A stretch of 61,785 bases of DNA, filler included, from Rhabdomonas costata (GCA_019059605.1; 19 parts of 19 records of this genome joined end to end with filler, not necessarily neighbours in it), one strand, 5' to 3'. Counted from the whole stretch's first letter, positions 1 to 44,065 are shown. Notes: generated from the sequence alone by a model not told the origin. Made by a program: numbers and translations.

Positions 1-2172
1 TGTTGTGGTTTGAAAAGTTGCGCTGTAGCAAAGTGGGCAGCGAGTAGCGACAAGATAGAATTTGCTCAAAAACATATTTACCATTTTTAAAGGGACACCC
101 TGTTGTAAAAAGTAGTCAGTCGGATTTTGGAAAGGGACAAGAAACCCGTTCCTTGTTGTGTGGTAGCCAGAGTATTTGACAGAAAACCCATCAGAGCGCA
201 CCGCACACGAGCTCCTCCAGAGTCAGGAAAATCAGACTGCGGACCAGTCACTCCTTTGTCGTGGGGATCCCGCGATCGAACCATTATTCGTGCTCCGTCC
301 TACCGGGACCGCCCCTTCGCCCTACGTTTCCTTGTGGACAAGTCTTTTTCTTAGCTACGCGGCTTGCGTACACAAGGCCCTTTCGGAACGAAGGATGCCT
401 CCACGTTGACAGGAGCAAGTGGCAAACTCTCGGGCGTTTTGCCTCACCCCTGTGGAGCCGGTGGACCAGCTGAAGGTTGTTGGGGAACAAGCCCGGGTGA
501 TGTCTAACGGCACGGTATACCGTGGTGCTGGGCTGAGTGGTGGGTTGCGCTGAAGCGCGTGCCTCAAGCCGTATGGGTGGTGGATATGATCCCATGTGGT
601 CGCCGACGATCTCTGGAGTCTCAGGAAAACTCCCATCTCCACAAGGATCTGGGTCCACGTTAAATTTGGGTCGGACAAAGGAGTGGCAGCCTTTAATACG
701 GGGCTCCTGTGCGTGAAGCGCGTTGCACGCGCTCAGACTGACAAGTTTTTGCTCAGCGTCTGCGTAATTCAACAGGATAAAAGATGCCTGAGCAGAAGCA
801 GGCCGGGCCTCCCAAAACGCTGCACAAGGCCGGTTCCTGGGTTGAGGTGTTTTCCTACCACTTGCCCCGAAGTGGTGCCTCTCGGCAGCACCTTGTATCT
901 CTTTTGCAGCACTTCTTCACCCGCCACAGCAGCAGCGCAGCGTAAGGCCACGAAGCTCAACTGCGAGGAGTGCGGCATGAAGCAAGTGAATCGCCAGAGA
1001 ATTCGCCATCTTGAAGGCAAAGGAAGTGAAGTTCATAAAGAACTTAATTTTTCTTTTAAAGTCCACCAGGAACACAGCACTTTGGGAAGCATTTCACATT
1101 CAAAGTAAAACTTCTGCAAGAGCTAGCAAATAAATTGGTAATACAGGTGTGCAAATAATTTAGGAAAATGTCCATCGCGTCGAAGGCAGGCAAATTTGCG
1201 TGGAGTTCGGGCAGTGTACAAGCATTGCCAAGGAGGCCCCAAGGATTCCGGCACAAAAAGGCGAAGCGGACAGTCGCACGTCCCGCGCGGGCCGCTTGGC
1301 AAAACGAGAGGACAGTGCTGGACAAGGGAAGGCAAGCAGGGGCCACGCGGAGCAGGCGATTGCGATGGTGGGCGGTCGGGAGAGCACACTCCTTGTGGGT
1401 GAATTGTACTGTTCCTTTACACAATGGGGATAAGGAACACTCCAGAAGAGCGAACTGAAGCAGAGTAGAAAAAATAACCCTTCAAATTGTCCTGCTTCCA
1501 AAGGCGATCATCGAAGCAGTACTGCTGACGCAGCCTGCAGCCTCACGCTCAGGAAGCCGGACTACATCTTATCATCAGGGTTTCAGTACTACACATTTTG
1601 ACAACTCGAAGCTAAGCACATACTCAAGAAATGATCCTCTTGGAGTACGGCCATGAGTATCGTCTTGCTGCAAGAAGTGCTGATGGCTAATTTTTAAAAC
1701 GGGCAGTTATGGGAAAACAAGTGTCTTAAAACCCCATCGGCGAAAGTTTCGTCCCTTCTTCAATTATCATTAAACACATTATTCTTGCTTCTGATATCAA
1801 AAGCTGTTCAAATTAAATAACCTGGAGGAGACGTGGGGCGGCGGGTCTTACTGCGCAATTTCACATGGCGGACGATGATGACCTGAAGCGCCAACTTGTT
1901 CTCGAAGCAGAACGTGATAAGAAGTTAAGGCAAGAAATTGAAGATGCGGAAAAACTTGCTCAGGTTTTTCAACTCGGATTTGTGCACAGACTTTTGCAAC
2001 ATCGAAACAGAGAAAGAAACTCACCACTATTGAACAAGAAGTGTCTTGGGTTGGGTATTTCACGTTATAACCTCCTCAAAGTCACTTTTGCACATTATAA
2101 ACCTCCTCTGGCACATTATTATAAACCTCTTGTACTTGTGTTGTGGTGGAGGATGCGGAGTTGGGGAGTTTC

Positions 2173-2507
2173 CTGATCGTAGCAGTAGACACCCTTCCCG
2201 TGCATCGCACCTGTGGGCACAAGCGAACCCACACACACTCAGTTCCGAAAAACATGAGCTATTTTGTGGAGAAAGTTCAGTTCAAAAGAAGAAGACCATC
2301 TTGCCATTCTCCTTCATAGGTGTCCCCGTTGGAGAAGGTGTACTTCTCCACCTTCCCTGACTTGCCCACGTCAGAGTTAGCCATGTCCTTCAGCTCGGCC
2401 GCGATCGCAGCTTGCTGCTGAGCTTCCTCGACCTTTTCCTCTGCGCGCTGCTTCTTATTTGTACGCATCTGCTTCTTTCGTTCAATGCGCTTCCTGCGCT
2501 CTTCCTC
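2173..2507 (-). CDS. MORN-repeat protein fragment (exons 2507-2297 and 2210-~2173)
   Basis: Splicing out a GT-AG intron at 2296-2211 gives ...KYTFSNGDTYEGEWQDG/AMHGKGVYCYDQ, a complete MORN repeat, preceded by a charged helical stretch. Both gene ends are missing. Confidence 0.85.
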
Positions 2508-3160
2508 CTATGGTGGGCAGTGCACAAGTGGGCACAGCACAGGTTGCAAGATGTCCACCGGGAGGGAGAGGGGGTGTTGAACGGTTTGGCAGCGCAAATA
2601 ATTTGACCTTGTCATTCCGTTCACGCAAGACTTCCCAAGATCAAGCAAGAAAAGCAGCTGACATCTTTGCCAATGGTCCCCGATTAATCCAAGTAACCGG
2701 TGGGTTCCTCTGGTCTTTCACCTCCGGACAGTTTACCCACGACAGTCGAATACCGCTCTCCTGTACTGCGTCGTTTAACGATTACCGTTCGCCATCTTAT
2801 CGCTATATTGGCCGCGCTGTACTTGTGTGTCAGTATTTCTAACACTCTGCTGCTGTGCACCTTTCAGCTTACGATTACCGTTCGTTGCCGTTAAAATTTT
2901 TTTTGCTCTGGAGCATGTGCCAAAGCTCAACAAAAGCCGTCGTCCGGGAAGAAAAAATTTGGTGCCCCCCACTAAGCATGCTAAAGACCCCAGGCCTGCT
3001 TCGCCCATCCATCAAATTAAGAAGTCGACTGATCCATTAGCACATTGGTTTACGATTGCCGTGACTCCCACATGCGTCGGTTACCGATTACCACCACAGT
3101 GACAATGACGAAAAACACCCCAAAATGGCCCCTAAAGGCCTCTGGGGCACCTCTACCACC

Positions 3161-3260
3161 NNNNNNNNNNNNNNNNNNNNNNNNNNNNNNNNNNNNNNNN
3201 NNNNTTAATTAATTAANNNNNNNNNNNNNNNNNNNNNNNNNNNNNNNNNNNNNNNNNNNN
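3161..3260. other. Artificial contig linker N-TTAATTAATTAA-N (first of 18; others start near 6420, 9681, 12939, 16201, 19460, 22718, 25976, 29234, 32491, 35748, 38999, 42255, 45523, 48779, 52032, 55284, 58532)
   Basis: Same six-frame-stop 12-mer inside N runs every ~3.26 kb; genes are cut at these points. Confidence 0.99.
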
Positions 3261-3542
3261 GGGGGTGGTGGCAAATGTGATGGCATCTTGGAGAAATGCC
3301 ATTTGACGCGACCTCTCAACTCTCATGTGGATCACAACAAAGGGGAGTATACCCTTCGGGAGACGATAAAAGGCCAGCTTAGGGTGGTGTCGACACAGGG
3401 TATTGACGGCGCCTGGGGCAACCTCAAAAACTTCCTCAGGGCACGAGGAGGATGCTCTGCTGACCACCTGGAGAGCTCTGTGAAGGAGTTTCAATGGCGC
3501 TGGAACTTCCCTGACCACTCTGATCCTTTTTATAACGAATAG
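3261..3542 (+). mobile_element. Merlin/IS1595 (ISXO2-like) transposase, C-terminal part
   Basis: HVDHNKGEY...VSTQGIDGAWGNLKNFLR...HLESSVKEFQWRWN...DPF matches the family pattern VNH..E...TxxIEgxWxxxK...hLxxYxxEfxwRxN. Truncated by the contig start. Confidence 0.85.
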
Positions 3543-4091
3543 AGTGTATTGCGGGTGGCTGTTTTCAGTGACTTGCCTTTCGGCCTCGTGGGCGAATAAG
3601 TGTAGGTATGCCGTAGAAATATAGGGGGTCCCTAAGGTGGCCCAAACTAGCCAGGCTTGCTCAGCCCCAAAACCGGCACCACTGGGGGCATCCCATAGCC
3701 AACCATTGGGGGGACAGGGTGATGGTTTCCACACGCGGATTGTTTAGGATGCGCTCGCTTTTTGGGACGCATCTGGGTTGCCGTTTGATAAACTCAGTTT
3801 CAGCGGAGCGGATGGTCACCGTTTTTGACGCGTCCCCCTCCTTCCTCAACAGGCTCGCGCTCAAAAATTACTTTCCCATTCTCCGGGAATTTCTTGGTCG
3901 TCCACGGCAAAGGTACTCTCGCCTTTAGCTCAGCACTGGAGACAAGAGCTGAAAAACTCGACACGGAGGGAGACACCACTTCAATAATGGGTTCGCCATT
4001 TTGTATGAAAAAGAAATAGAAACTTCAAAAGCAGGGGTTTGTTGTAGACATCTTGGCCAATTTTGGTGGGCGGGCGGAGGGTCGGCCAGGC

Positions 4092-4840
4092 CTCGTCGCT
4101 CTGCCTGGCCCAGTCCATCAGCGCAGACACCGGCATCTTCACCAGCACCAACAGCTCAGTGAGGCTCACGGGCCGGCCAAGGGACGCTACGAAGGCCAAG
4201 GCCTCGTCAGACAAAGCGTTCAGAAGAACGGGACGCCACCGTGTGAAGGCCTGGTACACCGCCACAAGTTCGGACAACGTCGTCGCCACAGGAACATCTG
4301 CAGCAGCAGAGCCGAAGGGAAAAATTTGCACAATGGCGTGTGCCACGATGAAAGCAACACATTACCACAGTTGCTTTTCACGCGAGTGCCAGTTTCCGAA
4401 TGGCGTGCAGATTCAAACACATCATTAAATACCACACCGCCGACCTTTCCAAAGAAAAAGATTTCTTGTCAGACTGGCGGTAGAGGGCGACGACAGTGCA
4501 GGACTGGGGTCTTTTTCGAACACAGTTCCTATAATATGTCATACGTTTCCCAACATGGCTTTTGTTTCGCTCAAGCTCCCACTTTTCAGGGGTGGACTTC
4601 GCCTTGCGAGGAAAACCAGGGCCATGGCAGTAATATAATGCTCCATTCGCGCAACCTTCCCCTGGGTACAGGGTGGTGGCTGTGAGGGGCTCGTGTGCAG
4701 CAGCGGCACACCCCGGTGAAGGTCTGTGTTCACCTTGGCTACCCCTTGCGGGGAGAGATGCTCCAGCGCCACGACCTCGATGGTCTGCAGAGACCGGCCC
4801 AGCTGAGCCTCGAAGTACTCAAGAAGAGCAGGCATGGCTT
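4092..4840 (-). CDS. Two probable exons (4840-4712, 4297-~4092) of an unidentified protein
   Basis: GC-rich open frames join in phase 1 through a G|GTGTGC donor (4711) and a pyrimidine-tract CAG acceptor (4298). No recognisable domain. Confidence 0.45.
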
Positions 4841-5764
4841 CTTGGGGGGTATCCACGGAAGTAACGGAAAGAGCGTGCAGGAAACGAAACAAACGAAACA
4901 CAAAACGATAGCAGGTAGCAACAAGGTGCCAAAAGCCACCCGATGGCTACAAATTCCTCTGCGGACGGAGCGAAAGAACAATGCATATGAGCCCCACGTT
5001 TCCAGAAAAAAGCACAATAACAACCTCTCTCTCTCTCTCTCTCTCTCTCGAAAATACATTCTTGTTTCTTGGTTTCAGGCACACCAGTCCACTGGCCCTC
5101 TTGACGTTACGGAGGGGTGTTGGGATCCGAGCTGTGCAACTCTGCCCACAACACCAGTGCCAATATTCCTATCGCCAAGACTTGCCGCCTCCGCGCACGG
5201 CTACCCCGGCTGTTCTGTTGGTTTGAGTCACCCGTCTGCAACGGAATTAGCAGAGGCTCTCGTCTTGAGGGTATGAAATAGTGAGACAGTAATATGCTCC
5301 CTCTTAATATGGGGGGGGGGTTCAAGTGATGTGTGCGCTCTTGAGAGGTCCGCATTTCGCCCATGGCGGCTCTTTCCGCCCCTCCCCTCCCTTAAGAGTC
5401 CGGATTTTGTGCGCGGTCGTCTTTTCCAACTTTTCCGTGGTGGTTGTACCTATTCAAAACATTGCCCGTGCCATCTCAAAGTGCGAGGTTAAAAAAGCGT
5501 CACCATAATGTTACCTTTTGGACTTGCAGGGCTTTTAGGATAGTAAAATAGTCTCCCTTTGAAAACCATGACAGAACAGTTGTTTCGAAAGGATTGGAAA
5601 CTGCTAAATTTAGGTGAGAGGCCAGTGCAATTACTCAAAATGCCCGTACCCACCGCTTGCCGCGCATTGTGACGAAGCACCGCAGCATCAACTGTGCGAT
5701 TTTGGTAGGAAACAGGCGGCCCAGGGTCTCCCGTTTCGCGGGAATAGAGGCAGGCTGGTTTTTG

Positions 5765-6419
5765 TACAAACGTTGTGGGTGCTGTGGCTGAACCCGTTGC
5801 GCTGGTGAAAGAAGCCGCAGAAGATCAAAAAGGAAGAGCCGCCTGAGTGTGCAAGGACCCACCACGCAGCGTTTCGGGAGGCCCAATGAACTGAAAAGCC
5901 CCCGGGCCTGCTTCAATTGGAGTCCTTGGGGACTCGTGCATCGCTTCCTAACCCCCTTCAAGTCTTCTATTGGAATCCCAGGGGACCCTTAGACACGTCA
6001 CAGGAACACGCAAAAGGACTCCTGTGCAGAGGGATGCGCCGCGCCAAGTGGCATGTCGCGACTGAATCTGGTTCCACCTCACACATGGTCTGACCGTTAT
6101 TGCTCAAATGCCCAAGTTTCTTTGTGAACCATCCATCTTTCGGGCATATTTCTGTCGCTCTTCTTTCACCCTCAAATCCATATCGGGAGCCACCATCACT
6201 ACTATCACTGTCGCTGCAGATGGGTAACCCAAACCATCATCACCGGGATGTTGAACTGAGGGCAAAGCTGAAGCAGGCCCACGGGCTTTTCTGTTCATTG
6301 GGCCTCCCGAAACGCTGCGTGGTGGGTCCTTGCACACTCAGGCGGCTCTTCCTTTTTGATCTTGTGCCGCTTCTTTCACCAGCGCAGCGAGTTTAGCCAC
6401 AGCACCCACAACATTTGTA
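5765..6419. repeat. ~150-bp imperfect inverted repeat (5765-5915 / 6269-6419), ~350-bp spacer
   Basis: Manual alignment of the arms shows about 9 substitutions; the right arm runs off the contig end. Confidence 0.9.
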
Positions 6420-6519
6420 NNNNNNNNNNNNNNNNNNNNNNNNNNNNNNNNNNNNNNNNNNNNTTAATTAATTAANNNNNNNNNNNNNNNNNNNNNNNNN
6501 NNNNNNNNNNNNNNNNNNN

Positions 6520-6848
6520 GTTTTTGGGGCTGAATGATTCCAAAGCTCCTGTGGCGTAGATGATTGCCACCTTATCTGGAAATCTCCGGAAATCCTTCAG
6601 CCCCAGAAATTTGCTGGATTCCCGTCGTACTTCGGGAACTCTTGATCTTTCTCTTGCAACGTTCGCAACGCTCCGGCAACTTCTTGGACTGTGGATGCGG
6701 GCGCCACTCCTCCACTCTGCGAACTTTCTACTGGGGTCCCAGCAACCACTCTGCGCAGAAACTCCTGAGTAAGTTCGTGATTTGCCCTCTGTTGCTGCTC
6801 CATGCTCTGAAAGAATGAAACCATTTGAGTAAAAAAATTATGCTCCAT
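6520..6848 (-). pseudogene. Ty3/gypsy-type gag N-terminus (disrupted)
   Basis: MEHNFF...EFPKYDGNPANFWG* contains the gag PxFxG...W motif; lies downstream of the LTR and PBS array. Confidence 0.65.
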
Positions 6849-7200
6849 CGGTGGCGCGGGTGCTGCGCTTGGGTTAGGGGGCGGGGATTTCCTGACATGA
6901 CTCGTATCCCCCTCTTAATACCACTTGATGGTAGCTCCCATCGGTATTGCGCCTCTGGAAGACATCCACTCGGGGGGGGGGTAATTGTGTGCCTCTGTGC
7001 TCAGAATTCGCGGTTAGGTCGCTTGGGTCTCCTCGCGTCCTCTGCGGTGCCCTTGAGCCCGCGTCCTTTCCCCTACTAATCCCCTGTGTGGATTGATCAA
7101 CCGTAAATCTCTACCCGCACTATGTGGATGGATTGTTTGCCTATCTTCTCTTGTTTCCGCGGCCTTACTCGCTAGGGGGGGGTCTTTTGCGCTCTAAACA

Positions 7201-7526
7201 CCTGAAACCACTTGTAAATGTGGATCACCACTCGCTTGATTTCCACGCGGACTCTGCACCAAATGCGCTCAATTCGGTCCATGGCAAACTCTGCTAACAC
7301 GTGCCAACGATGCACGCTGCACTCTTCAGGGGCTTGGACTTTCAACGATACTCTGCTACCAGGTGTCACAAAGTGATACTTTGTACTCCAACACAGAGCT
7401 GCGCTCCTCGTGCCGCACATGGCTTTCTCGACTTATTCCTCTGCTACCAGGTGTCAACCTGGTAGAACTTTCATCGCACGTTGCGCTAAAAGCGGGTCAT
7501 AAACAATCCTCTGCTACCACGTGTCA
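7201..7526 (-). repeat. Array of six LTR-terminus + tRNA-iMet primer-binding-site units
   Basis: Minus strand: TGACA-cg-TGGTAGCAGAGGATTGTTT (PBS from 7519); TGACA-cc-TGGTAGCAGAGGA (7449); TGACA-cc-TGGTAGCAGAG (7361); TGGCA-cg-TGTTAGCAGAG (7299); GCGCA-tt-TGGT-GCAGAG (7261); TTACA-ag-TGGTTTCAG (7210). Confidence 0.8.
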
Positions 7527-8050
7527 CACTTCAACTATGCTGCGGGAACTCTTACGTGGCTCCTACCTCTTTGGGTGGTCGTGCCTCTGGATCTCACTCA
7601 AGCTGGACTGTATCCCGACCTTGCTTGCACAAGGTGGGCGCTGCCTCGGCTTACCTAGGTGTCTTGGCACCTAGAACGTGGCGGAGGTCTCTTACGTTCG
7701 TCCGGGGGTCTCTCTGGTGCTCTCTGCGGGCGTCGCCTTTCTGAAACGGTGGCGGGGGTGCCAACCACTTTTCGATTTACCAAGCCGCTTCGGCGTAAAT
7801 ATGGCGACCTCTGGGGGCACAACTCTGCAGATCAGGGTGGGTCACTTGTTTCTCGTGAAAGCTGCTTTAGGCACAGGAGGGGTCTCTTGGCCGGGCCTTG
7901 GTGCTCACACCTTCTGGGCTGTGGAGTGGTTTCGCTGGGCGGGTCTCGCCGCTTATGCCTTTCTACAATCTCCCACCCAAAAAAAAGGCTGCGGAAGGGG
8001 CACGCAACAGCACACACACACCGTCATGTGTTTACCGCACTAACGCCACA
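7522..8050 (-). mobile_element. Putative LTR (~530 bp, TGT...ACA)
   Basis: Starts TGTGGCG directly after a polypurine tract and ends GTGTGACA two nt before a PBS. Only one copy is visible, so the limits rest on these signals. Confidence 0.65.
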
Positions 8051-8070
8051 CCCTTTTTCCACCTCTCTCC
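8051..8070 (-). promoter_or_regulatory. Polypurine tract (plus-strand primer site)
   Basis: GGAGAGAGGTGGAAAAAGGG (19/20 purines) abutting TGT. Confidence 0.6.
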
Positions 8071-9099
8071 ATCTGCTGGTGCCTCGGGTCTCCGCGGCTC
8101 TAGCCTGCGGTTCCGCTGTGGTTCTGCTGCACATCCTCTGTAAAAACACGATGAAAGGCGAAACGCAACACAAATTTACACAAAAACCGACCTTTTAGGT
8201 TTAATTCCGCATTAGCGGACCCACGCAATTTTCTCTCTGTGTAATTCTCGTATTTCTTGGCGTTCAGGGGCCCCAGGGTAGTCAGGACGAACTCTGAAAG
8301 CTGCCTGACCTGTGAAAACTCGGGAGAAAGATGAGAATGCAACTTTCTTCCTCCGGAACCGTGGAACACACCCTGTGGATTTCTAATGCGTTCGTGTCGT
8401 GTGCAGTCTACATCCTTCCACGTGACTTCCCTCCATTGGCCTGGCTCTCTGCCTCGCCCGGGGTCTTCCACACAGTCTCTCTGCAGGCCTTCCATCTCTC
8501 ACCTGGCCCTGCTCTGCGCGCTTTCTCGCCCAGCTGGTTGATATATAGCCTGACCCATGGCCTGGCCAGGAGCTGGCTCACGACGGGCTGAGCTTCGCCT
8601 TCTGTCTCAGCTGACCCTTGACAAAAGGGCACGATGGAAACCTCTGGAAAATGTCTATGTACCAAGCATGTGACTTTTGTTCAATTCTGTCTCTGAGTGT
8701 GAAACACCTGGGTGATCTGAACCGTTAAAGAGGGGAAATCCTCAACCCGGCGACCGAGGTTTGAATCCAACCCACCACGCTCCAAACCAAAGCCGACCAC
8801 AGACCCGTTGAAGGCTAACGATCATACGCCCGAGGTGTGCCGAAGAGAGGAAATCTGACCCCCGCCACAACGACCAGCATACGGTTACAAAGTGGAAACT
8901 TCCCATCTTCCAACTTTCTGGGTAGGTGGTCTCTTTTTTTTCTGCCGGTGGTTCTCAGAATTTTGGACGGTAGCTTTGTCTGCGCAGTACGGCTCTTCAT
9001 CTCGAGGCCGTTGTTGTAATTGCGGCGGTAGGCGTCTGCAACAAGGGAACTTTTCCCGGCAAATCACTGAAAAAAAAGCCGTGACAAAGGGGACCGCGG

Positions 9100-9680
9100 C
9101 CACCGTGGGCACGGGCACCTCAATGCCACAGTCCACTTCGGACTCAGGAATAGCAATGGACACACAGATCGCGCGACACCGGCCACATCTCAATCCTTGA
9201 AACCCCAAAGTGTGGCAATTTGTCAGGCCTCGATACGGTGTTGGACTACTGCCCCTGGAAAAGGATAGAAAGGTTAGTATCATTGTGTGAGTGTGTAATT
9301 TTGTGTGGGTGCTCGTGGACCATACCACATCAGCAACAGCAGCATTCCGAAAACTTCAGGGGCAAAAAGCGCGCGCTCTGGACGGAATGTGTGTGAGAGA
9401 TTTCAGCAGTCTGAATACAGCCCCAAAAACCGCCTTTCAGCTGCCGCGCCGGCCTCTGGAAGTTCCACCTTAGGCTCCTCGGATTCTCCGCCATCACTTT
9501 CGCCTGGATGTACCCTTCCAAGCCTATTACAAACAGGTACTGCAATAAGGTCTCGCTCTCAAACATCGTTCCATACAGCAAATTCATCCCAGTCACAAAC
9601 TGCTGATGGTAAAACTGAAAGTTTCCTTCTGACATCTTCCAACCTCCAAACCACACTATAGTCCCAGGTATGGCGCACAA
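9100..9680 (-). pseudogene. Ty3/gypsy-type gag middle/C-terminal remnant
   Basis: FYHQQF...LLQYLFVIGLEGYIQAKVMAENPRSL fits Y...F...L...FxxGL...I...V....PxxL; a frameshifted zinc-knuckle-like remnant (CVHC...VALRCP) lies near 9110-9165. Confidence 0.55.
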
Positions 9681-12355
9681 NNNNNNNNNNNNNNNNNNNN
9701 NNNNNNNNNNNNNNNNNNNNNNNNTTAATTAATTAANNNNNNNNNNNNNNNNNNNNNNNNNNNNNNNNNNNNNNNNNNNNGGTTGGTGGTAATCGTAGTT
9801 TACTTACCCCTGATTTCTACTCAAAAAACTATAGTCCCGGCGGCACCACGGCGATCAAAGAGTTCCCGCGGCATAGTTGCAGTGTGACACCGGTGCCCTA
9901 CCTAGGACCAATACAAGGAAAAAAGGCAGGAGCCCTGCCCACTTTGTCAAGGAAACAGCGGGCGACATGGTATCAGACATTCCCGGTTCTATGTGTTTGG
10001 TCTGAGGGCAGGGTCGCGGGTTTGATTCCCGGACCCTTACAGGGCGTTCACGTCCAAACCAGTTTTGCGGCCGCTCAAAACACGGTCCTTACACTCAAGC
10101 TCTGTTAAGTACGTGTCTTATATCCCAATGATGTCCTTTTTACCCACGAAATCCTTTTTTCTGTGGTACCACTTGACAAGTCCCATTCTCCACCATTTTA
10201 CGCCCGATTCTCTCCAGCACATTCTTCCTCCATCCATCTTGTGGGCCAAATTATGGCTGGAAAACCACTGTCTTGATACAACACAGTTCTTTTGACAGGC
10301 TGTTTCTTTACACTCGTGCTGCGAAGTGGCCTCAACATTTGAGTTCCCTGGCGTTACATTGGGCCTTTCATCCCCTCATCACATCGTCGCCACTGTTTTG
10401 TATAGTATTGCGCGTTTTCCCATGACTGGTTAGTCTACCGCTGAAATTTGTCGGAAAATTTCCTACCCTGTTTTCCAAATTAATCATCAGTCTTTAAAAC
10501 CAATGCCCATCAAAACTTTTACTTTTCTGAGCGTCCTTTACTGGTAATTCCCTCCTGGCTTTCTTTTACCGCTTTCTGAGCTCCAAAAATCCCAAACCGG
10601 CCTGCTTTTCCTTTTACGTTAGTTCCTTCTCCTTCTTTGGATCCTCCTGTGTTTAACCCTACCGCTTGAACTGTGATTCCCTACCGGTGAAAGTTCCCAT
10701 CGATGATTCTTCACTTCAGTAGAATAGAAAGCAAACTGGTATCATACGAAGAAAAACTTCTTGACGTGGAGTTTAACAACAAAAATCAAAGGGGCAAAAA
10801 CCCAAAGTAGATCCTAGAGAACGGAATTTAACACCCAGTAGCCCTTCTTGACTCCTGCTTCACGTCTGCCGCCGATATGAGGCAAGCAGGCTGCACCTTT
10901 TTTCTGCATCTTCAGCGACAGCCCCGTTTTCGGATAACGTCCTAGACAACGGTCGCTGCCTATGCCTTAGCCCTTTGACCCAAGCACGCTCCAGCAACAG
11001 TTTTCACCAGGGTGAGTGGACCTTGGATGCCTGGAGTAGCTGGAAGCTCTTAGTTGCTGGACGCTAGTGGAGAAAGCACGCTATTTGCAAAGCTTTCAAG
11101 CTTCGGGAGTCCCAAGCCGACGCTCCAGTGGCACCCATTGCCCCCATGGAACCCGATAATACACAGCGGGCGGAGGAGTTCTGCAGCGGAGGCCGAGGCC
11201 CCCGCGAATGGGATGCAGCCCGTGCCGGGACCGACCAGGGTGTCAATGGTCTCCGGGCACTCCTCGGGGCCGTGTGCCTGGGGAAAGTTGAACCGCTCCA
11301 CGAGGACCACCACAACATGGGTAACACAAGCGGAGCACTTGGTGGTCTTGTGCGGGGAAAAGCATGGGAACAGTAGGCAGGGGAACAACGGAAGAGGGAG
11401 GGATGCCCCGTGCCTAGATTTGAAGGTTTAATCGAGTCACCTATGAGCATAGGATCAACAAAACGGTTCTTTGCCAGTGAGTGACAGAAAAGCACAATGC
11501 ATCTATCTGTAGAAGCAATCGTGAGCACAAAAGGAATAAACGCAGTGTCTATCGAAAAAACATCTGCATAAATGGCGCAGGAAGCGATTGCTGGTCCAAC
11601 TTCGTTGTGTGCCGGTTCACGGAACTCGACCTGTTTGTTACAATTAATGTGTACAACAGCTCATAAAATGTTCCCGATGATAAAAAGAACCCGTAATTCC
11701 ATAATAAAATCACCAAGAAACCAACCTCCCTGGTTTGGCACAGGTGGTAAGCTCCTCTTAGGTTTTGTAAAAACTGGGTCGTTGAGAAAAGGGCCAGGGC
11801 AGCCTAGGAAGAGCCGGTGGGTTCTGTTCACATGAAGCAGCGCACCGCTGCCAGATCAAGGCATAATTGTCGTGCCTTACGGTGGGAATGAAACCGCAGG
11901 GCGTAAATTTGGATGAAAAGCAAGATGAATGCTGAACTTGAATTTTTTTCGCTCAGAACACAAATATCCATGCCGACCTGTCACCGATGGAAGGGAGTCC
12001 TCACTAGGAAAAAGGGGACCCTTGGGACGCGTGTCGAAATGTGAAACATAGGATACGACTTTCGCGTGGCGCAAATGGAGCGGGGGGTGGATTGCTAAGA
12101 GACATGGGGGCGAGGGGCCTCATGGCCATCCACGTGACAGCAGGCAGCATCTCAGTTCTGCATTTTATCTGCTAAAGCAGTGGGACTTCGGATTCAAGTC
12201 TGATACTACCGACTATTACAGGCTACTACTTTTTACGGGTGTTAACAGATACTGAAGCCGCTGAAGCCTTCACGTGCATGATATGTAATGACTATTAGGG
12301 CGCCAACACCAACGTGAACTTCAAGGACACACAGAAGCTTTGATACACGACTGAC

Positions 12356-13038: not shown

Positions 13039-14521
13039 GGGTTGTGGTGACAACCTACGAGGCGTGTAACTGACTCGCTCTCTTTGTATGCTTGGCCAAG
13101 ACGAGACAAGACAAGACAAGAAAAGAAAAGAAAAGAAAAGACCGCGCCAAAGTCGCAAACACACCAATCAACATTCAAGACGCGAACCCACCATCTGTTG
13201 CTTTTCGTGTTTTATGAGTTGCTTTATATGTTTTATGTCAGTCATTTTTTGGGCGAATCAGGTGGTCTCGAGGGAGATATCCACCCTGAAACGGCTGAGG
13301 TTTCGCTATGTGATTGTGGACGAGGCCCACCGGCTGAAGAACGATCAAAGCGTTCTTTCACAGGTTCTGTAAGTTTTCTTCCAGGCTTTTTGCTTGCCCC
13401 AGCCTCTCTTTTGTTTAACCCTTTTCCATTCGTTAGTCAAACCCGCTACGCTGTACCCCGTGTGCAATGCGCTTTGACTCTGTCCATCCCGTGCCCTGTG
13501 GGTTACGTTTCCATCCTTGCCTGGTGTGCTGCCGCACTCCGTTTGCATTTTTTTCCGAAGGTTGTGCGAAGGCTGCGGTCGAGCTTCCGGCTGCTGCTTA
13601 CGGGCACCCCGCTGCAGAACAACCTGCACGAGCTGTGGGCGTTGCTCAACTACATCCTCCCAGACGTGTTCGACTGCTCGCAGGCTTTCGACTCTTGGTT
13701 TGCGTGTAGCCCTGTTGTTCGGACAAAATCAGAATTAGGCCCTTCTCGAATTGTTCACCGAGTGTCTGACACTAAATAAAACCAAGTGACCGCGAATGAG
13801 TGTCCTAAAGCGACTGCTGTTGAGTGGTGACGTCAGTGATAACGACCGCGAACGATCAGAAAACGCATGGTCAGCGGATCGCCCGCTTTTGCTTCGCATT
13901 TTTGCTCTTTTTTTTTCCGTGGTGACAGATTCAGAAAAAGTCGACAGCAACGATAATACTGCCCAACTCAACGCTAGTTTAAACCTAACCCGCTCGCAGA
14001 ACCGTACCCTCCGCATAACGCAGCGCACCGCCGGCACCTTTTCCCTAAACCATGTCTAACGTTAAATCAGGCGGAGATGCTGCCTGGCTGATGACCCAGC
14101 CACTCCGCCAGGACTTCTGTAAGGGCATCAGATCATTCACAGTTCACCTATTTCACCTAACTTACGTACACTCTTTCTCTCTCTGGCGCTGGAGTTTTCC
14201 TCATAGAAAAACCTGCATCGTATTGGAACTGCGCCGAGACATGGGGATTGTTCCTTAAGGTTCAACACGTCCACGGGGAGCTCCGAGAACTCCGTTGTGC
14301 TGCAGCTACATAAGCTGCTGAAGCCGTTCATGCTGCGGCGTTTGAAGGCCGAGGTGGAGCGCGGGCTGCCGCCGAAGAAGGAAGTTCTGGTGAGCTGCCC
14401 GCTGTCTGCGATGCAGCGGGGGTGGTACATGCGTATCTTGGCGCGGGATCCCGGGCTGGTCAACGGCACTCAGGCGGTATCCCGGGTCGGCTTGTTGAAC
14501 ATGGTGATGCAGCTGCGCAAG
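13039..14521 (+). CDS. ISWI-type SNF2-family chromatin remodelling ATPase, partial (exons 13039-13061, 13262-13363, 13561-13697, 14260-14521)
   Basis: Spliced motifs VVTTYE / [11 protein letters not shown] / [21 protein letters not shown] / [22 protein letters not shown] / [10 protein letters not shown]; phases are consistent; intron 1 is GC-AG. Confidence 0.95.
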
Positions 14522-35846: not shown

Positions 35847-38529
35847 TGTTGTGGTGGATCCACTGGAACGCCTAAGGGCTCCACTTTTGTGGAGGCCAAC
35901 ATGATTTCACCCGATGGTATTTCTTTGGTTGAACCCTTTGTCGTGCTTGACTTCCAGAGCTTCGATCCAACGTACATCCTATCTCTTCTGCTCACGGTTC
36001 AGTATGGTGGTGCGCGGGCCTTCCCACGTTCCCTGGAAACAATGATGACGGAACTGTCTTTGCTACGGCCCACTCATATTGGGGCCCCGCCTTCATTCTG
36101 GTCTTCTTTACAACATCAGTTTCTTGCGCGCGTTCGCCAGTTGGTCTCCCAAGGCTTGACTGGTGAGGCGGCGCGAAACAAAGCGGCCGTCGAGCTCAGG
36201 TCGGCCCTTGGCAGTCGGCTCCAAGTTGCTACTGCTGGTGGAGCTGCTTTGAGCTCAGAAGTTGTTAAGTTTGCCAAAGAGTACCTTCATCTGGATATTG
36301 TGAATCTGTACGGGTCTCGCGAGACAGGGGGAATTGCCAAAGATGGTGTCGTTTACGCCGGCGTTGACGTTGAGCTGCTGCCTGTTCCTGAACTTGTGTA
36401 CGTTCATGATGGCCCACCTCCCCGGCGAGGAGAGATCTGCGTTCATTCCCCTCGGCTTGTTTCGGGCTATTACGGGGATCCCGACGCAACTGCAGCGAAG
36501 TTTGCCGACCTGTTTGGTGATGGGCGTCTTTTTTACAAGACTGGGGATATCGGTGAGCTGCAAGTGGACCCGTCTACTGGGAGAAAGAGGCTGTGCATTT
36601 TGGATCGCCGTTCGGCAGTGATAAAACTTGCAAATGGCGAGTGGATTTCTCCCCAGCGCATTGAGGAGTTTTTGGAAAGCCGTTCTTCACTTCTTAAACA
36701 AGTAGTAATGTTTCCTTCATCTGAATACACCCACCTTTATGCAGTGGTTCTCGTTTCGGAGAGTGGCTTGAGCCACACAGATGAGGAAATCGAACAACAC
36801 GTGCGAGTCCTCCTTCGCCATTATCACGCACGACCGACGGAGTTCCCTGCTGCGGTTTGCACAGAACGGGATTCCAATGCTTGGGGGAAGCTCTGTGCAG
36901 CGTCCGGAAAGAAACAAAGAGAAAATGTGATCGCAAGGTACAGGTATGTTTTGGAAAATAGAAGCGGGCATCCATCCGTGATGGTGTCCGAGCGATGTCC
37001 TTTGCCCGCGCGCTTTGCGTCTGTGGTTGCGTCGGTGATGCCGTTGCTGCCCCTTCATTCGGAGGCGCGCCTTTCCGAGCTGGGTGTGGATTCTCTGGGT
37101 ACTGCCATGCTTCTCAATGCTATTGAAAAAGAATACTCTGTTAAGCTTAGCCGAGCGGTGCTGTTTGAATATCCGCTTTCGCACATTGAGGCTCTTGTGC
37201 AGTCTCCCGAGGTGCTGCAGTTCTCCTCCCATGTGGAGGCAGCTGCAATTGAGTGGAATGTAGAGTGCAGTTTGAGTGATCTAAACGAAGTGCACTTTGT
37301 CCCTGTCCCTTCTTGCCGGCGAGATGTGTTTTTGACTGGTGTCACAGGATTCATTGGCCCAGTGCTTTTGGAACGGTTATTGCACTATCACCCCGTCTCC
37401 ACCGTTTATTGCCTGGTTCGTGAAAGTCCTGCTCATGTTTTGCTTGAACGGGTCGCTGGCGTTGCTNNNNNNNNNNNNNNNNNNNNNNNNNNNNNNNNNN
37501 NNNNNNNNNNNNNNNNNNNNNNNNNNNNNNNNNNNNNNNNNNNNNNNNNNNNNNNNNNNNNNNNNNNNNNNNNNNNNNNNNNNNNNNNNNNNNNNNNNNN
37601 NNNNNNNNNNNNNNNNNNNNNNNNNNNNNNNNNNNNNNNNNNNNNNNNNNNNNNNNNNNNNNNNNNNNNNNNNNNNNNNNNNNNNNNNNNNNNNNNNNNN
37701 NNNNNNNNNNNNNNNNNNNNNNNNNNNNNNNNNNNNNNNNNNNNNNNNNNNNNNNNNNNNNNNNNNNNNNNNNNNNNNNNNNNNNNNNNNNNNNNNNNNN
37801 NNNNNNNNNNNNNNNNNNNNNNNNNNNNNNNNNNTTTGTGTTGTGTCCACCATTGGCGCTGTGACTTCTGCGACGCCTGACGCACAAGAGGAACTGCTCC
37901 CATGGGCCATCAACCAGCTTGAGGCCAAAAGTGGGTATGCTCAGAGCAAGGCGGTCGCTGAAGAGCTGCTGCGCCAGCTTGCTTGCCAACGGGCAATAGA
38001 CCTGCACATATTTCGGCCCTCCGCCGTTTCAGCACACACGGAAACAGGCTGGTACAACCAGAAGGATTTCACCTACATGCTGATTTCGCTGATTCACGAG
38101 CTCAGAGTGGCCCCACTTCCCGCTGCTCTTCCCCTTCGCTGGGTTCCGGTGGACTTCCTGGCTGACGTGATTGCAGGAACATCTGCGGAGACGCTGGAAC
38201 CGCCAGATGTGATCACATCTCCAAAAGTTTTCAACGTCTTTGGGCATGCCCCTATGCTGGGTGATGTAGTGGAGACGTTGAGGCGACTCGGTATTGCTCT
38301 TGAGTCCTGCCCTGTTCACGAATGGAAGGAGCTGGCGCTTGCCAAGGTCTCGGAAGAGTCACACCCTCTCTTCTCCCTGAAGTCTGTAATCGAAAGCATG
38401 GACTTCCTGGGTTCGGGCTCCGCCGTTCTGTCGCAGTCACCGAGGCTTGTTTCTGCAGGAAAGGTTTACTCGATGGATTCAGCTGCTCTTGAAAAGTCTC
38501 TTCTGCTTTCTGGGCTGCACATGCACTAA
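35847..38529 (+). CDS. Carboxylic acid reductase-like NRPS-type A-T-R enzyme, 5'-truncated, with assembly gap 37467-37834
   Basis: GSTGTPKG, YGSRETG, VPELVY..PRRGEI, GYY, YKTGD, DRR..IKLANGE (adenylation); LGVDSL (phosphopantetheine Ser); VFLTGVTGFIG, GYAQSKAVAE, IFRPS (thioester reductase); ends in TAA. Confidence 0.92.
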
Positions 38530-41091
38530 TCTCTTTGACTGTATTGTCGCTTTGACTCTGATTGCTCTGGTGTTTTGTGCTTTTTTTCGTTCTGTTTGCT
38601 AAAATTTCGGGTTGTGGTGTGCTCGATCCACCACGAATTTATTTATCTTCACGGATAAGATTTGGCGAATCGAAGCATTCCAAAACAGATCGAACCTTGT
38701 CGTCGAACTCCCCATTCTCAGTTGCTTGTGCAGTCTGGAGTTTTTTGGGTTGGGGAGGGGGTTGTACTGTAGCGTTTTTGACGTTGTGTTTGTTACCCTC
38801 TTTTGCTTTCGTTGGGTTGTTTATCAGCTCCTTGCTGGATGCCCCAGGATACTGTCTCTGACTTTTGACTGTGTCCTTTTGTCGCCATGTGATGGCATTT
38901 TGTGGCGTGAAGATGCCCCGGTGACCTATCGGATTGCCGTAGGGCTCAGAAATTCTGAGCCAGGATGCTCAAGCTTGGGAGGCAAGCCTCTGCTTTTTNN
39001 NNNNNNNNNNNNNNNNNNNNNNNNNNNNNNNNNNNNNNNNNNTTAATTAATTAANNNNNNNNNNNNNNNNNNNNNNNNNNNNNNNNNNNNNNNNNNNNGA
39101 CAATTTCAGGTGTTGGAGGTTCGTACAGAATCGAGCAATTTACTCCCGATTTAAGCCTGTTACCCGCGGACCTGAAGCATATTGAGCAGAATTCATCTTG
39201 CAGTGAAGCCAGCATGCTTTTGGTCAAGCTGCGTTCATTGGGTTTCGCCACAGTTCGGATGTCTGATCCACGGTGGGACCAGCAACGCGAGAATTGCCTC
39301 CAGGACGTCTCTGCTCTGGAGTTCTGGCGGCCATTTGTCGAGTGGCAGAAGTACCCTCGTAAAAATGGCCAGCAGAGGACTTACGCAGTTTTTGGAAAGG
39401 TACCAAAGTCCTGCTGGGGCTCGGAGTTTCCTGGAAAAGAGCGGTTGCAAGCTGCGCTGGAATTCGTAGATTCCCACCTGGGCATCCCTTCGATGGTGTC
39501 TGTTCATATTCCGCAGTCAGACGTCCCGCACTCTGCCACCTTGGAGCTGGTGGACTGGCAACTGTCAGAGTTTGTTGCTGGGCTGGCTTCACGGGGTGTG
39601 GTCTTTGCAGTTCTCGCTTCGCCCCATTGGACTCGGGGTCACCTGGACTTAAGCCCTCTCCTGTTACGATTCTGGGGTTTCCCCAAGATGGTGTCCGGGG
39701 AAAACAAGGGACGGCCATGCTGCGGCCATTAAGGCTCCCTCACTGAAGGCCCGATCTCCAGCTTTCCATGGAAAATCCGTCCTCAGAAGGGCGGCTTGCT
39801 CGACTTTTCTGAGTTTGTGGCTTTTGCCGTGCTGGTGCGCAACCGAACGGCTGCAATGCATAGGCACTGCGGCTCTTTTTCCGTAGAGAGTATTCGTGCC
39901 CGGAGCGGTCCATTGGCTGGTCGGCAGCGGTGGGTGAAGGTATCCTTGGTGGAAGAGGAGGGCTTCGACCGGTGGTGCCTTGTAATTGGTGGAGAAGGTC
40001 AGGTAGTCATGGGGAACTGGTCGGCGAGGTTTTCCAAGCGATGCCCGGATTTGCCCTACAGCCTCAGGGGCTATTGTGTATGCTAAAGGATTTCCTGTGC
40101 TCATGGCCACGGTATAGCATTCTTTACACTGTAGATTGTTGCTGGTCCCTGATTATTTCCTGTTTGGGAGTGGGTGGCGTGGATGCGGAACATCAGAGTG
40201 GTGTGGGTGGGTCAGTGGGGTTTGTGTTGCTGGCGGCGGCGGGATGGGTGCTGCACGTGAGGTCTGTGTAGGTGGGCGTGCTCGGCACAAGTGCTCGAAT
40301 AGTTCCAGGGTCATATTTGGACCAAAATTACAGCATTTCCTGACAATCCCTGCAGACGAACCTCTCCGCCCAGCCCCAAAAGGAAATCCCCCGCTGGGAA
40401 CCGTCTTGTGATCCTCCAATCTGTCAGAATTTGGCAGATCTTATTGCCTGCTGTTGGGTCCTTGGGGCGTCCGGTCATAATTTCTGGGTGTCACCCCACC
40501 GGACCATACCGGACCGGAGACCTCAAATTCGAGTTGGGGCTGTTCTTTTGTTCTCCAACATGTCCCCTTAAGGTCGGTTTTCGATCTTCTGCAATGCTAG
40601 GACCTTTTGGTTCTTCACTGGCCCACGCACTGGGCCTCAGCTTTCGGTGTGGCTGCGCGCTGGCCGAAATTTGTTTTGTTTCTGTTTTTTTTTTAGAGGT
40701 CTGGCTAGGATATGTACGTCTCCATTCTGAGCATTCGGCATTGTGGGTCGCCCCCCGGCCCCGGCGCCTGCCTCTGCACCGGTGTGTTAGCAGCGATTTA
40801 TACCAAGCTTGCTATAACTTGGCGGCTTTTGGTTTGTTTAGTCGCGGCATCAGCCTGCGCTATTGTTTGGTGGCATCTGATTTGCCCGCGCATTGCAGCA
40901 CTTGAAAGTGTTTCCCAGCAGCAGACTTTATAATGCTAAATGGGGGTGCTCCAAAATCCTTAGTAATTGGTGGTTCTCAGTCCAATTTCTTCTGGGAGTG
41001 CTTGCATGGTGGTATCCATTCAGCTTTTTTTGTCCCTCTTCTGAGCAAGAAGAACACAGTGTTTTACCGAAGTGGCGAGCTTTGTGACCCG

Positions 41092-42103: not shown

Positions 42104-42250
42104 GTTTATGTCAAGGCACATCCAAGCAGCGATTCCTCCCACCTGAGGCCGAATCGACGGTCTGGTGTATTTGTGCCGTACAACGCCGTTATACGGTACA
42201 AATTCGTAAAACGGCATAACGCTGTTGCACTTTGAACGAAATGAACAAAA
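41615..42250. repeat. Perfect ~95-bp inverted repeat (41615-41709 / 42156-42250)
   Basis: TTTTGTTCATTTCG...CAGACCGTC is identical in reverse complement; the second arm is at the contig end. Confidence 0.9.
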
Positions 42251-43404: not shown

Positions 43405-44065
43405 AAACCACCAAATGCAAGTACACCAAAACCAGACATTCAAGTATCAGCACACACTGAACTCACACCAGCAGCACCATACCCACACCAACCACAGTAC
43501 CAACGCAATCATCAACATAATAAATACCAGCACAAACACACGTCCACACAGCAACCAGGTAAGAAACAACATCTGCACCCAATACAACGTCAAAATTTCT
43601 AATAACACCCATGAAAACAATAGCAATCACAACCAGAAATCCCACCTATGAACACCACAAAAATGTCACAAAGAACCAGAGTAACCAAGTTGAGTATATG
43701 CTGATCACTCTGCTACGCTAGTTACCTAGATGCTAAAACCACCAAATGCAAGTACACCAAAACCAGACATTCAAGTATCAGCACACACTGAACTCACACC
43801 AGCAGCACCATACCCACACCAACCACAGTACCAACGCAATCATCAACATAATAAATACCAGCACAAACACACGTCCACACAGCAACCAGGTAAGAAACAA
43901 CATCTGCACCCAATACAACGTCAAAATTTCTAATAACACCCATGAAAACAATAGCAATCACAACCAGAAATCCCACCTATGAACACCACAAAAATGTAAC
44001 AAAAACCAGAGTAACCAAGTTGAGTATATGCTGATCACTCTGCTACGCTAGTTACCTAGATGCTA
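43405..44065 (+). repeat. Tandem duplication of a ~331-bp C/A-rich unit
   Basis: 43405-43735 and 43736-44065 are identical except for a few bases near 43665-43675. Confidence 0.95.

What the first reader, a model, noticed from the sequence alone, without database searches (positions are those of the whole stretch)
7201..7526. Polarised array of six LTR-end/primer-binding-site junctions with unique spacers in a retroelement leader
Seen: on the minus strand, between a putative LTR and gag, the unit [..CA][2 nt][TGGTAGCAGAG-like] recurs with PBS starts at 7519, 7449, 7361, 7299, 7261 and 7210 (periods 70, 88, 62, 38, 51 nt). The spacers show no clear similarity to each other or to the current LTR end. 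Known: CA + 0-3 nt + TGG.. is the LTR/PBS junction, and TGGTAGCAGAGGATGGTTT is the complement of the 3' end of animal-type initiator tRNA-Met. Unit 1 matches 18/19; units 2-3 keep the 11-nt core; units 4-6 are increasingly mutated. A normal element has one PBS. Inference: units were added one at a time at the LTR-proximal end, as in a CRISPR array, each leaving the U5 tip and PBS of a previous LTR. That would be a chronological record of LTR swapping or of targeted insertion at U5 ends. Alternatively the array acts as a multi-site tRNA/RT decoy. I know of no description of such an array but cannot search the literature.
Basis: partly seen in the sequence, partly recalled or inferred. Interest (0 to 1): 0.9.

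Follow-up and report, generated by a model that had tools for sequence, protein, structure and literature searches.

The report
Repeated primer-binding sites in a retrotransposon leader
A small gag-only LTR retrotransposon carries four or five spaced copies of its own LTR-end/tRNA-primer-binding junction where one is normal, which looks like spare start sites for reverse transcription, but it rests on one short contig of an amplified, fragmentary assembly.

Summary
The motif array is real. On the minus strand an 18-nt block, TGACAC-N-TGGTAGCAGAG, occurs exactly three times (PBS starts 7519, 7449, 7361). A fourth copy has 2 mismatches (7299) and a fifth has a 1-nt deletion (7261). The sixth (7210) is at chance level.

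The retroelement context holds. A purine tract is followed by a TG...CA putative LTR (8050-7522), then CG, then PBS unit 1. Gag starts at 6848 and has homologues that carry zinc knuckles.

The window is 19 unrelated ~3.16-kb contigs joined by N linkers, so only 6520-9680 is context. That contig is circularly permuted: its two ends lie about 20 codons apart inside gag. It is one ~3.2-kb unit with no pol.

The spacers do not align overall (p=0.24) but share a hexamer, AGCGCA, four times (p~0.014).

The CRISPR-like "record of LTR swapping" is not supported. The U5 tips of units 1-3 equal the present LTR tip, and units 1-3 are equally intact.

My best reading is that these are redundant minus-strand initiation modules, each with CA, 2 nt and an 11-nt tRNAi-Met complement. 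Unit 1 is the working PBS.

No genome, reads or related DNA could be obtained, so copy-number variation, the host tRNA and assembly support are untested.

The parts
6520..9680 (-). The only real context: one 3161-nt contig. It is a circularly permuted unit of a small LTR retroelement. Order on the minus strand: gag middle, about 1.37 kb unassigned, purine tract, LTR, PBS array, leader, gag N-terminus.
   Evidence: N44-TTAATTAATTAA-N44 linkers on both sides. tblastn of gag homologues hits both contig ends, about 20 codons apart in gag. No Pfam family in any of the six frames.
9438..9662 (-). Middle part of gag, matching residues ~142-240 of the homologues
   Evidence: tblastn of P0006-P0010, E 7e-9 to 1e-6, 34-45% identity
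8051..8070 (-). Polypurine-tract-like run GGAGAGAGGTGGAAAAAGGG, directly 5' of the putative LTR start
   Evidence: Read from the sequence. It has one T inside, so it is absent from the list of pure purine runs of 12 nt or more.
7522..8050 (-). Putative LTR, 529 nt, TGTGGC...GTGACA. The start is inferred; the end is well supported.
   Evidence: The purine tract precedes TG, and CA-CG-TGG follows the end. The last 33 nt recur in another contig. No second copy is in the window.
7501..7526 (-). It abuts the LTR and is the presumed working PBS.
7439..7456 (-). Unit 2: exact 18-nt block TGACACCTGGTAGCAGAG
7444..7465 (.). Perfect 9-bp inverted repeat CTACCAGGT/ACCTGGTAG with a 4-nt loop. It encloses the U5 tip and the start of PBS 2.
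   Evidence: the same hairpin appears in the RNA fold
7351..7368 (-). Unit 3: exact 18-nt block. The PBS matches the 19-mer 16/19, and similarity to unit 1 runs over 27 nt at 89%.
7289..7306 (-). Unit 4: the 18-nt block with 2 substitutions (TGGCACGTGTTAGCAGAG)
7252..7261 (-). Unit 5: TGGTGCAGAG, the core with a 1-nt deletion, preceded by CA-TT. A decayed unit.
7200..7210 (-). Not distinguishable from chance.
   Evidence: not found at up to 5 substitutions
7482..7487 (-). AGCGCA box in spacer 1. Further copies lie at 7400-7405, 7264-7269 and 7188-7193, with GCAGC variants starting at 7543 (in U5) and 7320.
   Evidence: 4 copies, p~0.014
6529..6848 (-). N-terminal part of gag, with ATG at 6848-6846. 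The reading frame changes between 6606 and 6597. The contig ends at about residue 127 of the homologues.
9858..9890 (+). In the neighbouring, unrelated contig: a 33-nt homologue of the LTR end (94%). It ends at ...GTGTGACAC and is followed by DNA that is not a PBS.

Best explanation
Shown: contig 6520-9680 is one unit of a small, pol-less, gag-encoding Ty3/gypsy-like LTR retroelement. The single LTR is flanked on one side by the element's 3' end and on the other by its 5' leader. That layout fits a short-read assembly that collapsed the two LTRs of a repeated element, a 1-LTR circle, or a tandem element. The first ~320 nt of the 673-nt leader hold four, probably five, copies of the element's own U5-end/PBS junction.

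Inferred:
- Each good unit is a complete minus-strand initiation module. It has the integrase-end tip ...TGACA, the 2 nt that end-processing removes, and an 11-nt complement of the 3' end of initiator tRNA-Met. Eleven nt is as long as the whole PBS of Drosophila Gypsy.
- Unit 1 abuts the LTR and alone carries the long (18/19) match that plus-strand copying of the primer tRNA renews every cycle. It is therefore the PBS normally used.
- Units 2 and 3 keep exactly the parts that a start site needs, while everything around them has diverged to random level. They are therefore either held by selection or made recently.
- Priming at unit 2 or 3 would still give a cDNA whose right end is ...TGACA+2 nt, and the RNA genome of the next cycle would be unchanged. 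Spare modules therefore cost nothing and raise the chance of capturing a primer tRNA. That could matter for a non-autonomous element that must borrow reverse transcriptase.
- Units 4-5 are decayed modules.
- The array most likely arose by internal duplication of the junction segment.
For: Array:
- 3 exact, 1 near and 1 deleted copy, on one strand only.
- The cores lie in three reading frames.
- The conserved block runs from the U5 tip through the 11-nt acceptor-stem complement and stops there. Unit 1 continues GAT, unit 2 GAA and unit 3 TAT.
- Spacers are at random-level similarity, so neutral decay of duplicates cannot leave three identical 18-mers.
- All good units keep CA-NN-TGG.

Context:
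- Purine tract, TG...CA, and CG-TGG.
- The LTR end recurs in another contig.
- Gag homologues: 3 short and 6 long. zf-CCHC is above cut-off in 3 of the 6, and Ty3_capsid is below cut-off in 5 of the 6.
- Gag matches lie at both contig ends.
- No pol domain in six frames.

Literature:
- Gypsy PBS of 11 nt (PMC1635307, passages).
- The core equals the tRNA-Met(i) complement (PMC1797187 and PMC3587641, passages).
- Engineered two-PBS vectors are said to initiate at both sites (title only, seen in reference lists).
Against: - There is one copy only, from a contig in an assembly whose contig ends look primer-derived. No reads, genome or related leader could be examined.
- This gag copy has a frame change near 6600 and no CCHC knuckle. 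The copy may be dead, and then selection on its leader is not evident from it alone.
- Units 2-3 match the tRNA complement over only 13-16 of 19 nt, so they have not recently served as the copied PBS.
- Unit 2's PBS start is locked in a 9-bp hairpin.
- The leader RNA folds no better than shuffles: z -0.58, with 27 of 100 shuffles folding as well.
- The recurring AGCGCA box is not explained by this model.
- The host tRNA-iMet was not seen.
Confidence: 0.45

Rival explanations
1. The array is a polarised, chronological record. Each rare event (LTR replacement, recombination with another subfamily, or template switching at initiation) adds a new U5-tip/PBS unit next to the LTR, and older units decay.
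For: - There is a rough gradient. Identity to unit 1 over 29 nt, counted by hand, is 22, 24, 18, 14 and 15 for units 2-6.
- Spacers do not align.
- A second LTR type that shares only the terminal 33 nt exists in this assembly. Diverged partners that share little beyond the LTR terminus are therefore available.
- Short inverted repeats sit at the 5' edge of units 2 and 3, as template switching might leave.
Against: - The tips of units 1-3 are those of the present LTR.
- Units 1-3 are equally intact, and unit 3 is nearer to unit 1 than unit 2 is.
- No spacer matches any other sequence in the window.
- The 7-bp inverted repeat at unit 3 is at chance level by my estimate.
- Nothing about the order of addition could be tested.
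Confidence: 0.12
2. A functionless, decayed tandem duplication (minisatellite) of the U5-end/PBS/leader segment.
For: - Periods are irregular (70, 88, 62, 38 nt).
- AGCGCA recurs once per spacer in 4 spacers.
- 4 of 15 spacer pairs are weakly alike.
- Weak A(A/T)AGT(T/A) similarity lies upstream of the tips (seen by eye).
Against: - Three 18-nt blocks are identical while the spacers are at random level (global p=0.24; TRF finds nothing). Equal neutral decay cannot give that.
Confidence: 0.15
3. A DNA-level array of protein-binding sites (enhancer or insulator) in the leader that happens to overlap the junction. Every unit contains CANNTG (CACGTG or CACCTG), the E-box form.
For: - The layout of a short conserved motif with unlike spacers in an LTR-element leader recalls the Su(Hw) site array of Drosophila gypsy (recalled, not checked here).
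- CANNTG is present in all units.
Against: - The conserved block is 18 nt and coincides base for base with the U5 tip plus the tRNA acceptor-stem complement. That is far more than an E-box.
- CANNTG is there by construction of the junction (CA-NN-TGG).
Confidence: 0.08
4. An artefact of amplification or assembly. Chimeric products or mis-joined reads from several family members were chained through the shared junction.
For: - 10 of 19 contigs start with a G/T-only run of 8 nt or more, and 12 of 19 end with an A/C-only run. This suggests degenerate-primer amplification (the primer type is recalled).
- The contig is a collapsed repeat unit.
- Read support could not be checked.
Against: - The longest exact stretch shared between units is 18 nt. 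By my reasoning that is shorter than the k-mers assemblers usually use.
- Each spacer-to-tip joint must exist in reads.
- Jumping at a shared motif swaps flanks but does not make tandem copies.
Confidence: 0.1

Closest known systems
Ordinary LTR/PBS junction of tRNAi-Met-primed LTR retroelements. Example: the crustacean Copia element CoRex1, with PBS TGGTAGCAGAGC one base after a TG...CA LTR (PMC3587641, passage read).
   Same: Unit 1 is such a junction...CA, 2 nt, TGGTAGCAGAG..., next to a TG...CA LTR. Two IMG/VR contigs with the exact 19-mer also carry it once, just after a ...CA end.
   Different: Here the junction recurs 3-4 more times downstream, at 38-88-nt spacing.
Bipartite or double PBS of Ty3 and Drosophila Gypsy (PMC1635307, abstract and passages read)
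   Same: There is more than one tRNA-binding site on one genomic RNA, an 11-nt PBS complementary to the acceptor-stem end, and Ty3/gypsy-like gag relatives.
   Different: In Gypsy and Ty3 the second site lies at the 3' end of the RNA and pairs with a different part of the tRNA. Here the same part of the tRNA is matched repeatedly, all in the 5' leader, and each site has its own U5 tip.
Engineered retroviral vectors with two PBSs (Voronin and Pathak 2004; only the title was seen, in the reference lists of PMC4227088 and PMC3902901; the paper itself is not held)
   Same: Several PBSs for one tRNA on one RNA. The title reports frequent dual initiation.
   Different: Those are man-made and have two sites. 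This would be a natural array with att-like tips.
Arrays of short motifs in LTR-element leaders, for example the gypsy Su(Hw) insulator (recalled, not checked)
   Same: Position in the leader, and a short conserved motif with unlike spacers.
   Different: The motif here is the element's own replication junction, not a host-factor site.
CRISPR arrays
   Same: Conserved repeat with unlike spacers of roughly similar length.
   Different: No evidence of polar addition. The 'repeat' is explained by the element's own LTR tip and primer. No spacer matches another sequence in the window.

Membership tests
LTR retrotransposon (Ty3/gypsy-like) | Two direct long terminal repeats | tested here: inconclusive
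   The contig holds one putative LTR and the window holds no second copy. The permuted order (3' end, LTR, 5' leader) fits collapsed LTRs, a circle or a tandem.
LTR retrotransposon (Ty3/gypsy-like) | TG...CA termini, a PBS 0-3 nt after the 5' LTR, and a purine tract before the 3' LTR | tested here: met
   TGTGGC...GTGACA, then CG, then TGGTAGCAGAG. GGAGAGAGGTGGAAAAAGGG abuts the TG. The LTR end is shared with another contig.
LTR retrotransposon (Ty3/gypsy-like) | PBS complementary to a host tRNA | not testable with these tools
   The core equals the published complement of metazoan tRNA-Met(i). No host genome is held and the window has no tRNA gene.
LTR retrotransposon (Ty3/gypsy-like) | Gag with capsid domain and CCHC knuckle | tested here: inconclusive
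   The N-terminal and middle parts are homologous to 416-498-aa proteins with zf-CCHC (3 of 6) and sub-threshold Ty3_capsid (5 of 6). This copy has no CCHC motif, no Pfam hit and a frame change.
LTR retrotransposon (Ty3/gypsy-like) | pol (protease, reverse transcriptase, integrase) | tested here: not met
   No Pfam family in six frames of the contig at E<=1 or in the minus-strand frames of 1-7200 at E<=0.01. It is at most a non-autonomous relative.
Polarised acquisition array (CRISPR-like record) | Spacers derive from other elements (U5 ends of other LTR families), and new units join at one end | tested here: inconclusive
   No spacer matches elsewhere in the 61.8-kb window. Unit tips equal the resident LTR tip. 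Polarity is untestable without other copies.
Minisatellite / tandem repeat | Whole units align head to tail | tested here: not met
   TRF finds nothing at score >=30. The global spacer alignment gives p=0.24. Only a hexamer box recurs.
Bipartite PBS of Ty3/Gypsy | The second site pairs with another region of the same tRNA and lies near the RNA 3' end | tested here: not met
   All units repeat the same 11-nt acceptor-end complement and lie in the 5' leader (PMC1635307).
tRNA gene or tRNA-derived SINE | Cloverleaf detectable | tested here: not met
   ARAGORN finds 0 genes. Rfam gives no tRNA match at E<=10 in the contig; it returns 4 unrelated matches, all with E>=0.94.

The most novel reading that the evidence does not exclude
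The array is written by reverse transcription itself. Occasional template switches at minus-strand initiation, or read-through of the primer tRNA followed by a jump, add a fresh U5-tip/PBS module at the LTR-proximal end. The leader then keeps an ordered tally of such events, and each module can also serve as an alternative start that shifts the LTR boundary, giving LTRs of different length among daughter copies.
Probability: 0.1. Interest if true: 0.8.

Novelty: new variant of a known kind. Interest (0 to 1): 0.5.

Why it matters
LTR retroelements and retroviruses are taken to have one PBS next to U5. A natural element with several complete start modules would show that primer capture can be made redundant. 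It would give a natural counterpart to the engineered two-PBS vectors. It would also predict LTR-length polymorphism within one family, and it might be a trick of non-autonomous elements that compete for a helper's enzymes. It bears too on host defences that target the PBS (KRAB zinc-finger proteins: search listing only, PMC8931336; tRNA fragments: recalled), because extra sites could act as sponges or as extra targets. Eight full-text searches found no description of such an array. The library lacks most subscription journals, and supplementary files were not consulted.

Tried and rejected
Tools that gave nothing usable:
- The whole genome is not held.
- Earlier findings of this scan returned nothing by place, by sequence or by words.

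Searches for related DNA:
- The metagenome scan with the gag profile found 1 confirmed locus among 127 candidate stretches. It is a 1078-nt contig with only 32 nt upstream of gag, so no leader.
- The same profile found nothing in viral contigs or in prokaryote genome contigs.
- The 18-nt block in IMG/VR gave 3 loci. All are the same phage-like coding stretch, so they are chance matches.
Each has one PBS after a ...CA end and neither has a tRNA gene.
- Two cores 50-80 nt apart gave 2 viral and 18 prokaryote-genome loci. Judged from the printed flanks, most show near-identical flanks (ordinary tandem or coding repeats). The rest are unlike-flank pairs in records titled as bacterial. None looks like an LTR/PBS junction array.
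- Cluster look-up of 8 gag relatives showed metagenome sources only, with no names.

Ideas rejected or left open:
- Coding repeat: rejected, because the cores lie in three frames and the overlapping + strand ORF 7240-7674 has no family.
- tRNA copy: rejected at the sensitivity of ARAGORN and Rfam.
- Structured RNA: no support.
- Spacers as decayed complements of the rest of the primer tRNA (read-through by reverse transcriptase): left untested, because no eukaryotic tRNAi-Met sequence could be obtained from a tool.
- P0001 and P0002 are long repetitive proteins hit in many short stretches. I set them aside as spurious.
- Other purine runs (8943-8930, 8354-8343) could mark other LTR starts. I kept 8050 because it starts TGT, mirroring the ...ACA end.

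Full report
What the window is. The 61,785-base window is not one stretch of genome. It is 19 contigs of 3148-3168 nt, in descending length order, joined by N44-TTAATTAATTAA-N44 linkers. Ten of the 19 begin with a G/T-only run of 8 nt or more, and 12 of the 19 end with an A/C-only run. To me (recalled, untested) that looks like the ends left by degenerate-primer whole-genome amplification. The finding lies in contig 6520-9680, and nothing outside it is context.

The observation. On the minus strand the coordinates are as stated. TGGTAGCAGAG with up to 1 mismatch occurs 4 times in the whole window, all within 231 nt on one strand. The expectation is 0.88, and 0 of 100 shuffles reach 4. The conserved block is longer than reported. 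TGACAC-N-TGGTAGCAGAG is exact at 7526-7509, 7456-7439 and 7368-7351. A fourth site (7306-7289) has 2 substitutions, and no more sites appear up to 5 substitutions on either strand of the contig.

Unit 2 is 14/19 by eye. Unit 5 is the core minus one base. Unit 6 (7/11) is at chance level by my estimate. CA-NN-TGG occurs 5 times in 331 nt against 0.44 expected, which is a post hoc test. The three exact cores sit in three reading frames, so a coding repeat is excluded.

The spacers. TRF reports no repeat here. Pairwise local alignments gave 0 of 15 pairs below p=0.05 with one set of boundaries. With another set, 4 of 15 fell at p=0.029-0.041, all through one shared box. A global alignment of five spacers scores 132 against 122.5 +/- 13.2 for shuffles, p=0.24. 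With the cores masked, AGCGCA occurs 4 times (7487, 7405, 7269, 7193; p~0.014) and GAGCGCA 3 times (p~0.017). GCAGC lies at 7543 inside U5 and at 7320. The spacers are therefore essentially unalike but carry one recurring short box, which I cannot explain.

The retroelement context. A purine-rich run GGAGAGAGGTGGAAAAAGGG (8070-8051) abuts TGTGGC at 8050. The sequence ends ...GTGACA at 7522, followed by CG and the first PBS. The last 33 nt of this putative LTR recur at 94% identity in the unrelated neighbouring contig (9858-9890, + strand). There the similarity stops exactly at ...GTGTGACAC, and DNA that is not a PBS follows. The LTR end is therefore a repeated element terminus. The LTR start at 8050 is inferred only, and no second LTR copy is in the window.

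Gag. Downstream, the ORF 6914-6597 (ATG at 6848) gave 5 hits at E<=1e-3 among 1.84 billion representatives. Two are long repetitive proteins, which I set aside. Three (89-142 aa) align over LRKLQEKD..FP.YDGN..F. A profile search of longer proteins found 6, of 416-498 aa. Three of the 6 have zf-CCHC above Pfam's cut-off. Five of the 6 have Ty3_capsid, and 3 of the 6 Retrotrans_gag, below cut-off. These are gag proteins, and all come from metagenome assemblies without names.

The permuted contig. tblastn of these proteins onto the window hits only this contig, and at both ends. Residues ~1-120 map to 6836-6529, with a change of frame between 6606 and 6597. Residues ~142-240 map to 9662-9438. The two contig ends are therefore about 20 codons apart inside gag. 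The contig is a circular permutation of one ~3.2-kb unit, in the order gag middle, 1.37 kb unassigned, purine tract, LTR, PBS array, leader, gag start. That is what a short-read assembler gives when it collapses the two LTRs of a repeated element, and also what a 1-LTR circle or a tandem element would give. I cannot tell which. No Pfam family is found in any frame and no CCHC motif. The unit has no pol and is at best a non-autonomous, gag-bearing relative of Ty3/gypsy-like elements.

Identity of the core. A paper on crustacean Copia elements gives TGGTAGCAGAGC as a PBS complementary to the 3' end of the Drosophila tRNA-Met gene (PMC3587641, passage). Two IMG/VR contigs with the exact 19-mer carry it once, just after a ...CA end. 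The host's own tRNA could not be examined. The window has no tRNA gene, and Rfam finds nothing tRNA-like in the contig.

Reading. Three identical 18-mers inside sequence that has otherwise diverged to random similarity cannot result from neutral decay of duplicates. Either the blocks are under constraint, or the units were made separately and recently. The block spans exactly what a minus-strand start needs: the LTR-end tip with its CA, the two bases that integrase trims, and 11 nt complementary to the tRNA acceptor end. Eleven nt is the length of the whole Gypsy PBS (PMC1635307, passages).

Only unit 1 touches the LTR and has the long match that copying of the primer tRNA would renew. Priming at unit 2 or 3 would still produce a cDNA end of the form ...TGACA+2 nt and would leave the next RNA genome unchanged. 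This is my inference from the standard reverse-transcription scheme. I therefore read units 2-3 as spare initiation or tRNA-capture modules and units 4-5 as decayed ones. My confidence in this reading is 0.45.

Points against it:
- This copy has a frame change and may be dead.
- Units 2-3 match the tRNA complement over only 13-16 of 19 nt.
- Unit 2's PBS start lies in a perfect 9-bp hairpin.
- The leader RNA is not unusually structured (z -0.58).
- The AGCGCA box is unexplained.

The CRISPR-like record of LTR swapping is not supported. The tips of units 1-3 are the resident LTR's own tip, and units 1-3 are equally intact. Unit 3 is nearer to unit 1 than unit 2 is. No spacer matches anything else available. 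A looser version remains possible: polar addition by template switching among diverged co-packaged relatives. It is helped a little by the second LTR type that shares only the terminal 33 nt. It could not be tested.

Other rivals. These are a functionless decayed repeat, a DNA-level protein-site array (all units contain CANNTG, but that follows from CA-NN-TGG), and an amplification or assembly artefact. Against the artefact, the units share at most 18 exact bases. By my reasoning that is shorter than the k-mers assemblers usually use.

Comparison and novelty. The closest known things are these:
- the single tRNAi-Met PBS junction of many LTR elements;
- the bipartite 5'-3' PBS of Ty3 and Gypsy, which pairs with different parts of the tRNA;
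- engineered two-PBS retroviral vectors (title only; paper not held);
- motif arrays in element leaders (recalled).

Eight full-text searches found no natural array of PBS junctions. The library is incomplete and supplements were not consulted. I rate this a new variant of a known kind and give it interest 0.5. The pattern is real and odd, but it rests on one short contig of an amplified assembly, with no second copy, no reads and no host tRNA.

Noticed in passing
whole window; linkers e.g. 3161-3260, 6420-6519, 9681-9780: The window is 19 contigs of about 3.15 kb in descending length order, joined by N44-TTAATTAATTAA-N44. Neighbouring pieces are unrelated.
   Followed up: yes
contig ends throughout, e.g. 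52132-52174 and 55505-58531: 10 of 19 contigs start with a G/T-only run of 8 nt or more (one of 43 nt), and 12 of 19 end with an A/C-only run. These look like degenerate-primer amplification ends (primer type recalled). The terminal ~10 nt of each contig may not be genomic.
   Followed up: partly
35847-38998: An ORF with AMP-binding, PP-binding and NAD_binding_4 domains (a carboxylate or aminoadipate reductase-like architecture), interrupted by a 368-N run at 37467-37834.
   Followed up: no
13051-13779 and 40906-41511: An SNF2-related ORF and a FAM221-like ORF, which suggests a eukaryotic host with cilia-related genes.
   Followed up: no
9858-9890 (+), and about 10000-10040: The contig next door carries a 33-nt homologue of the LTR end followed by unrelated DNA. 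About 110 nt further on is a stretch that looks like a tRNA T-arm, but ARAGORN does not call it.
   Followed up: partly
7444-7465 and 7368-7384: A perfect 9-bp hairpin encloses the tip and start of PBS 2. A 7-bp hairpin lies just 5' of the tip of unit 3; by my estimate the latter is at chance level.
   Followed up: partly
43405-44003; 5765-6419; 41615-42250; 58634-60713: An exact 268-nt direct repeat (spacing 331). Inverted repeats of 151 nt (94%) and 101 nt (98%). A 145-nt direct repeat at 91%.
   Followed up: no
6520-6615 (-): An imperfect inverted repeat at the contig end inside gag (GGGGCTGAAGGATTTCC ... GGAATCATTCAGCCCC), seen through a sub-threshold Rfam miRNA match. It lies next to the frame change in gag.
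   Followed up: no
L005:520-690: An IMG/VR retrovirus-like contig has a single tRNAi-Met PBS at 168-186 and three ~60-nt tandem repeats further down its leader.
   Followed up: no
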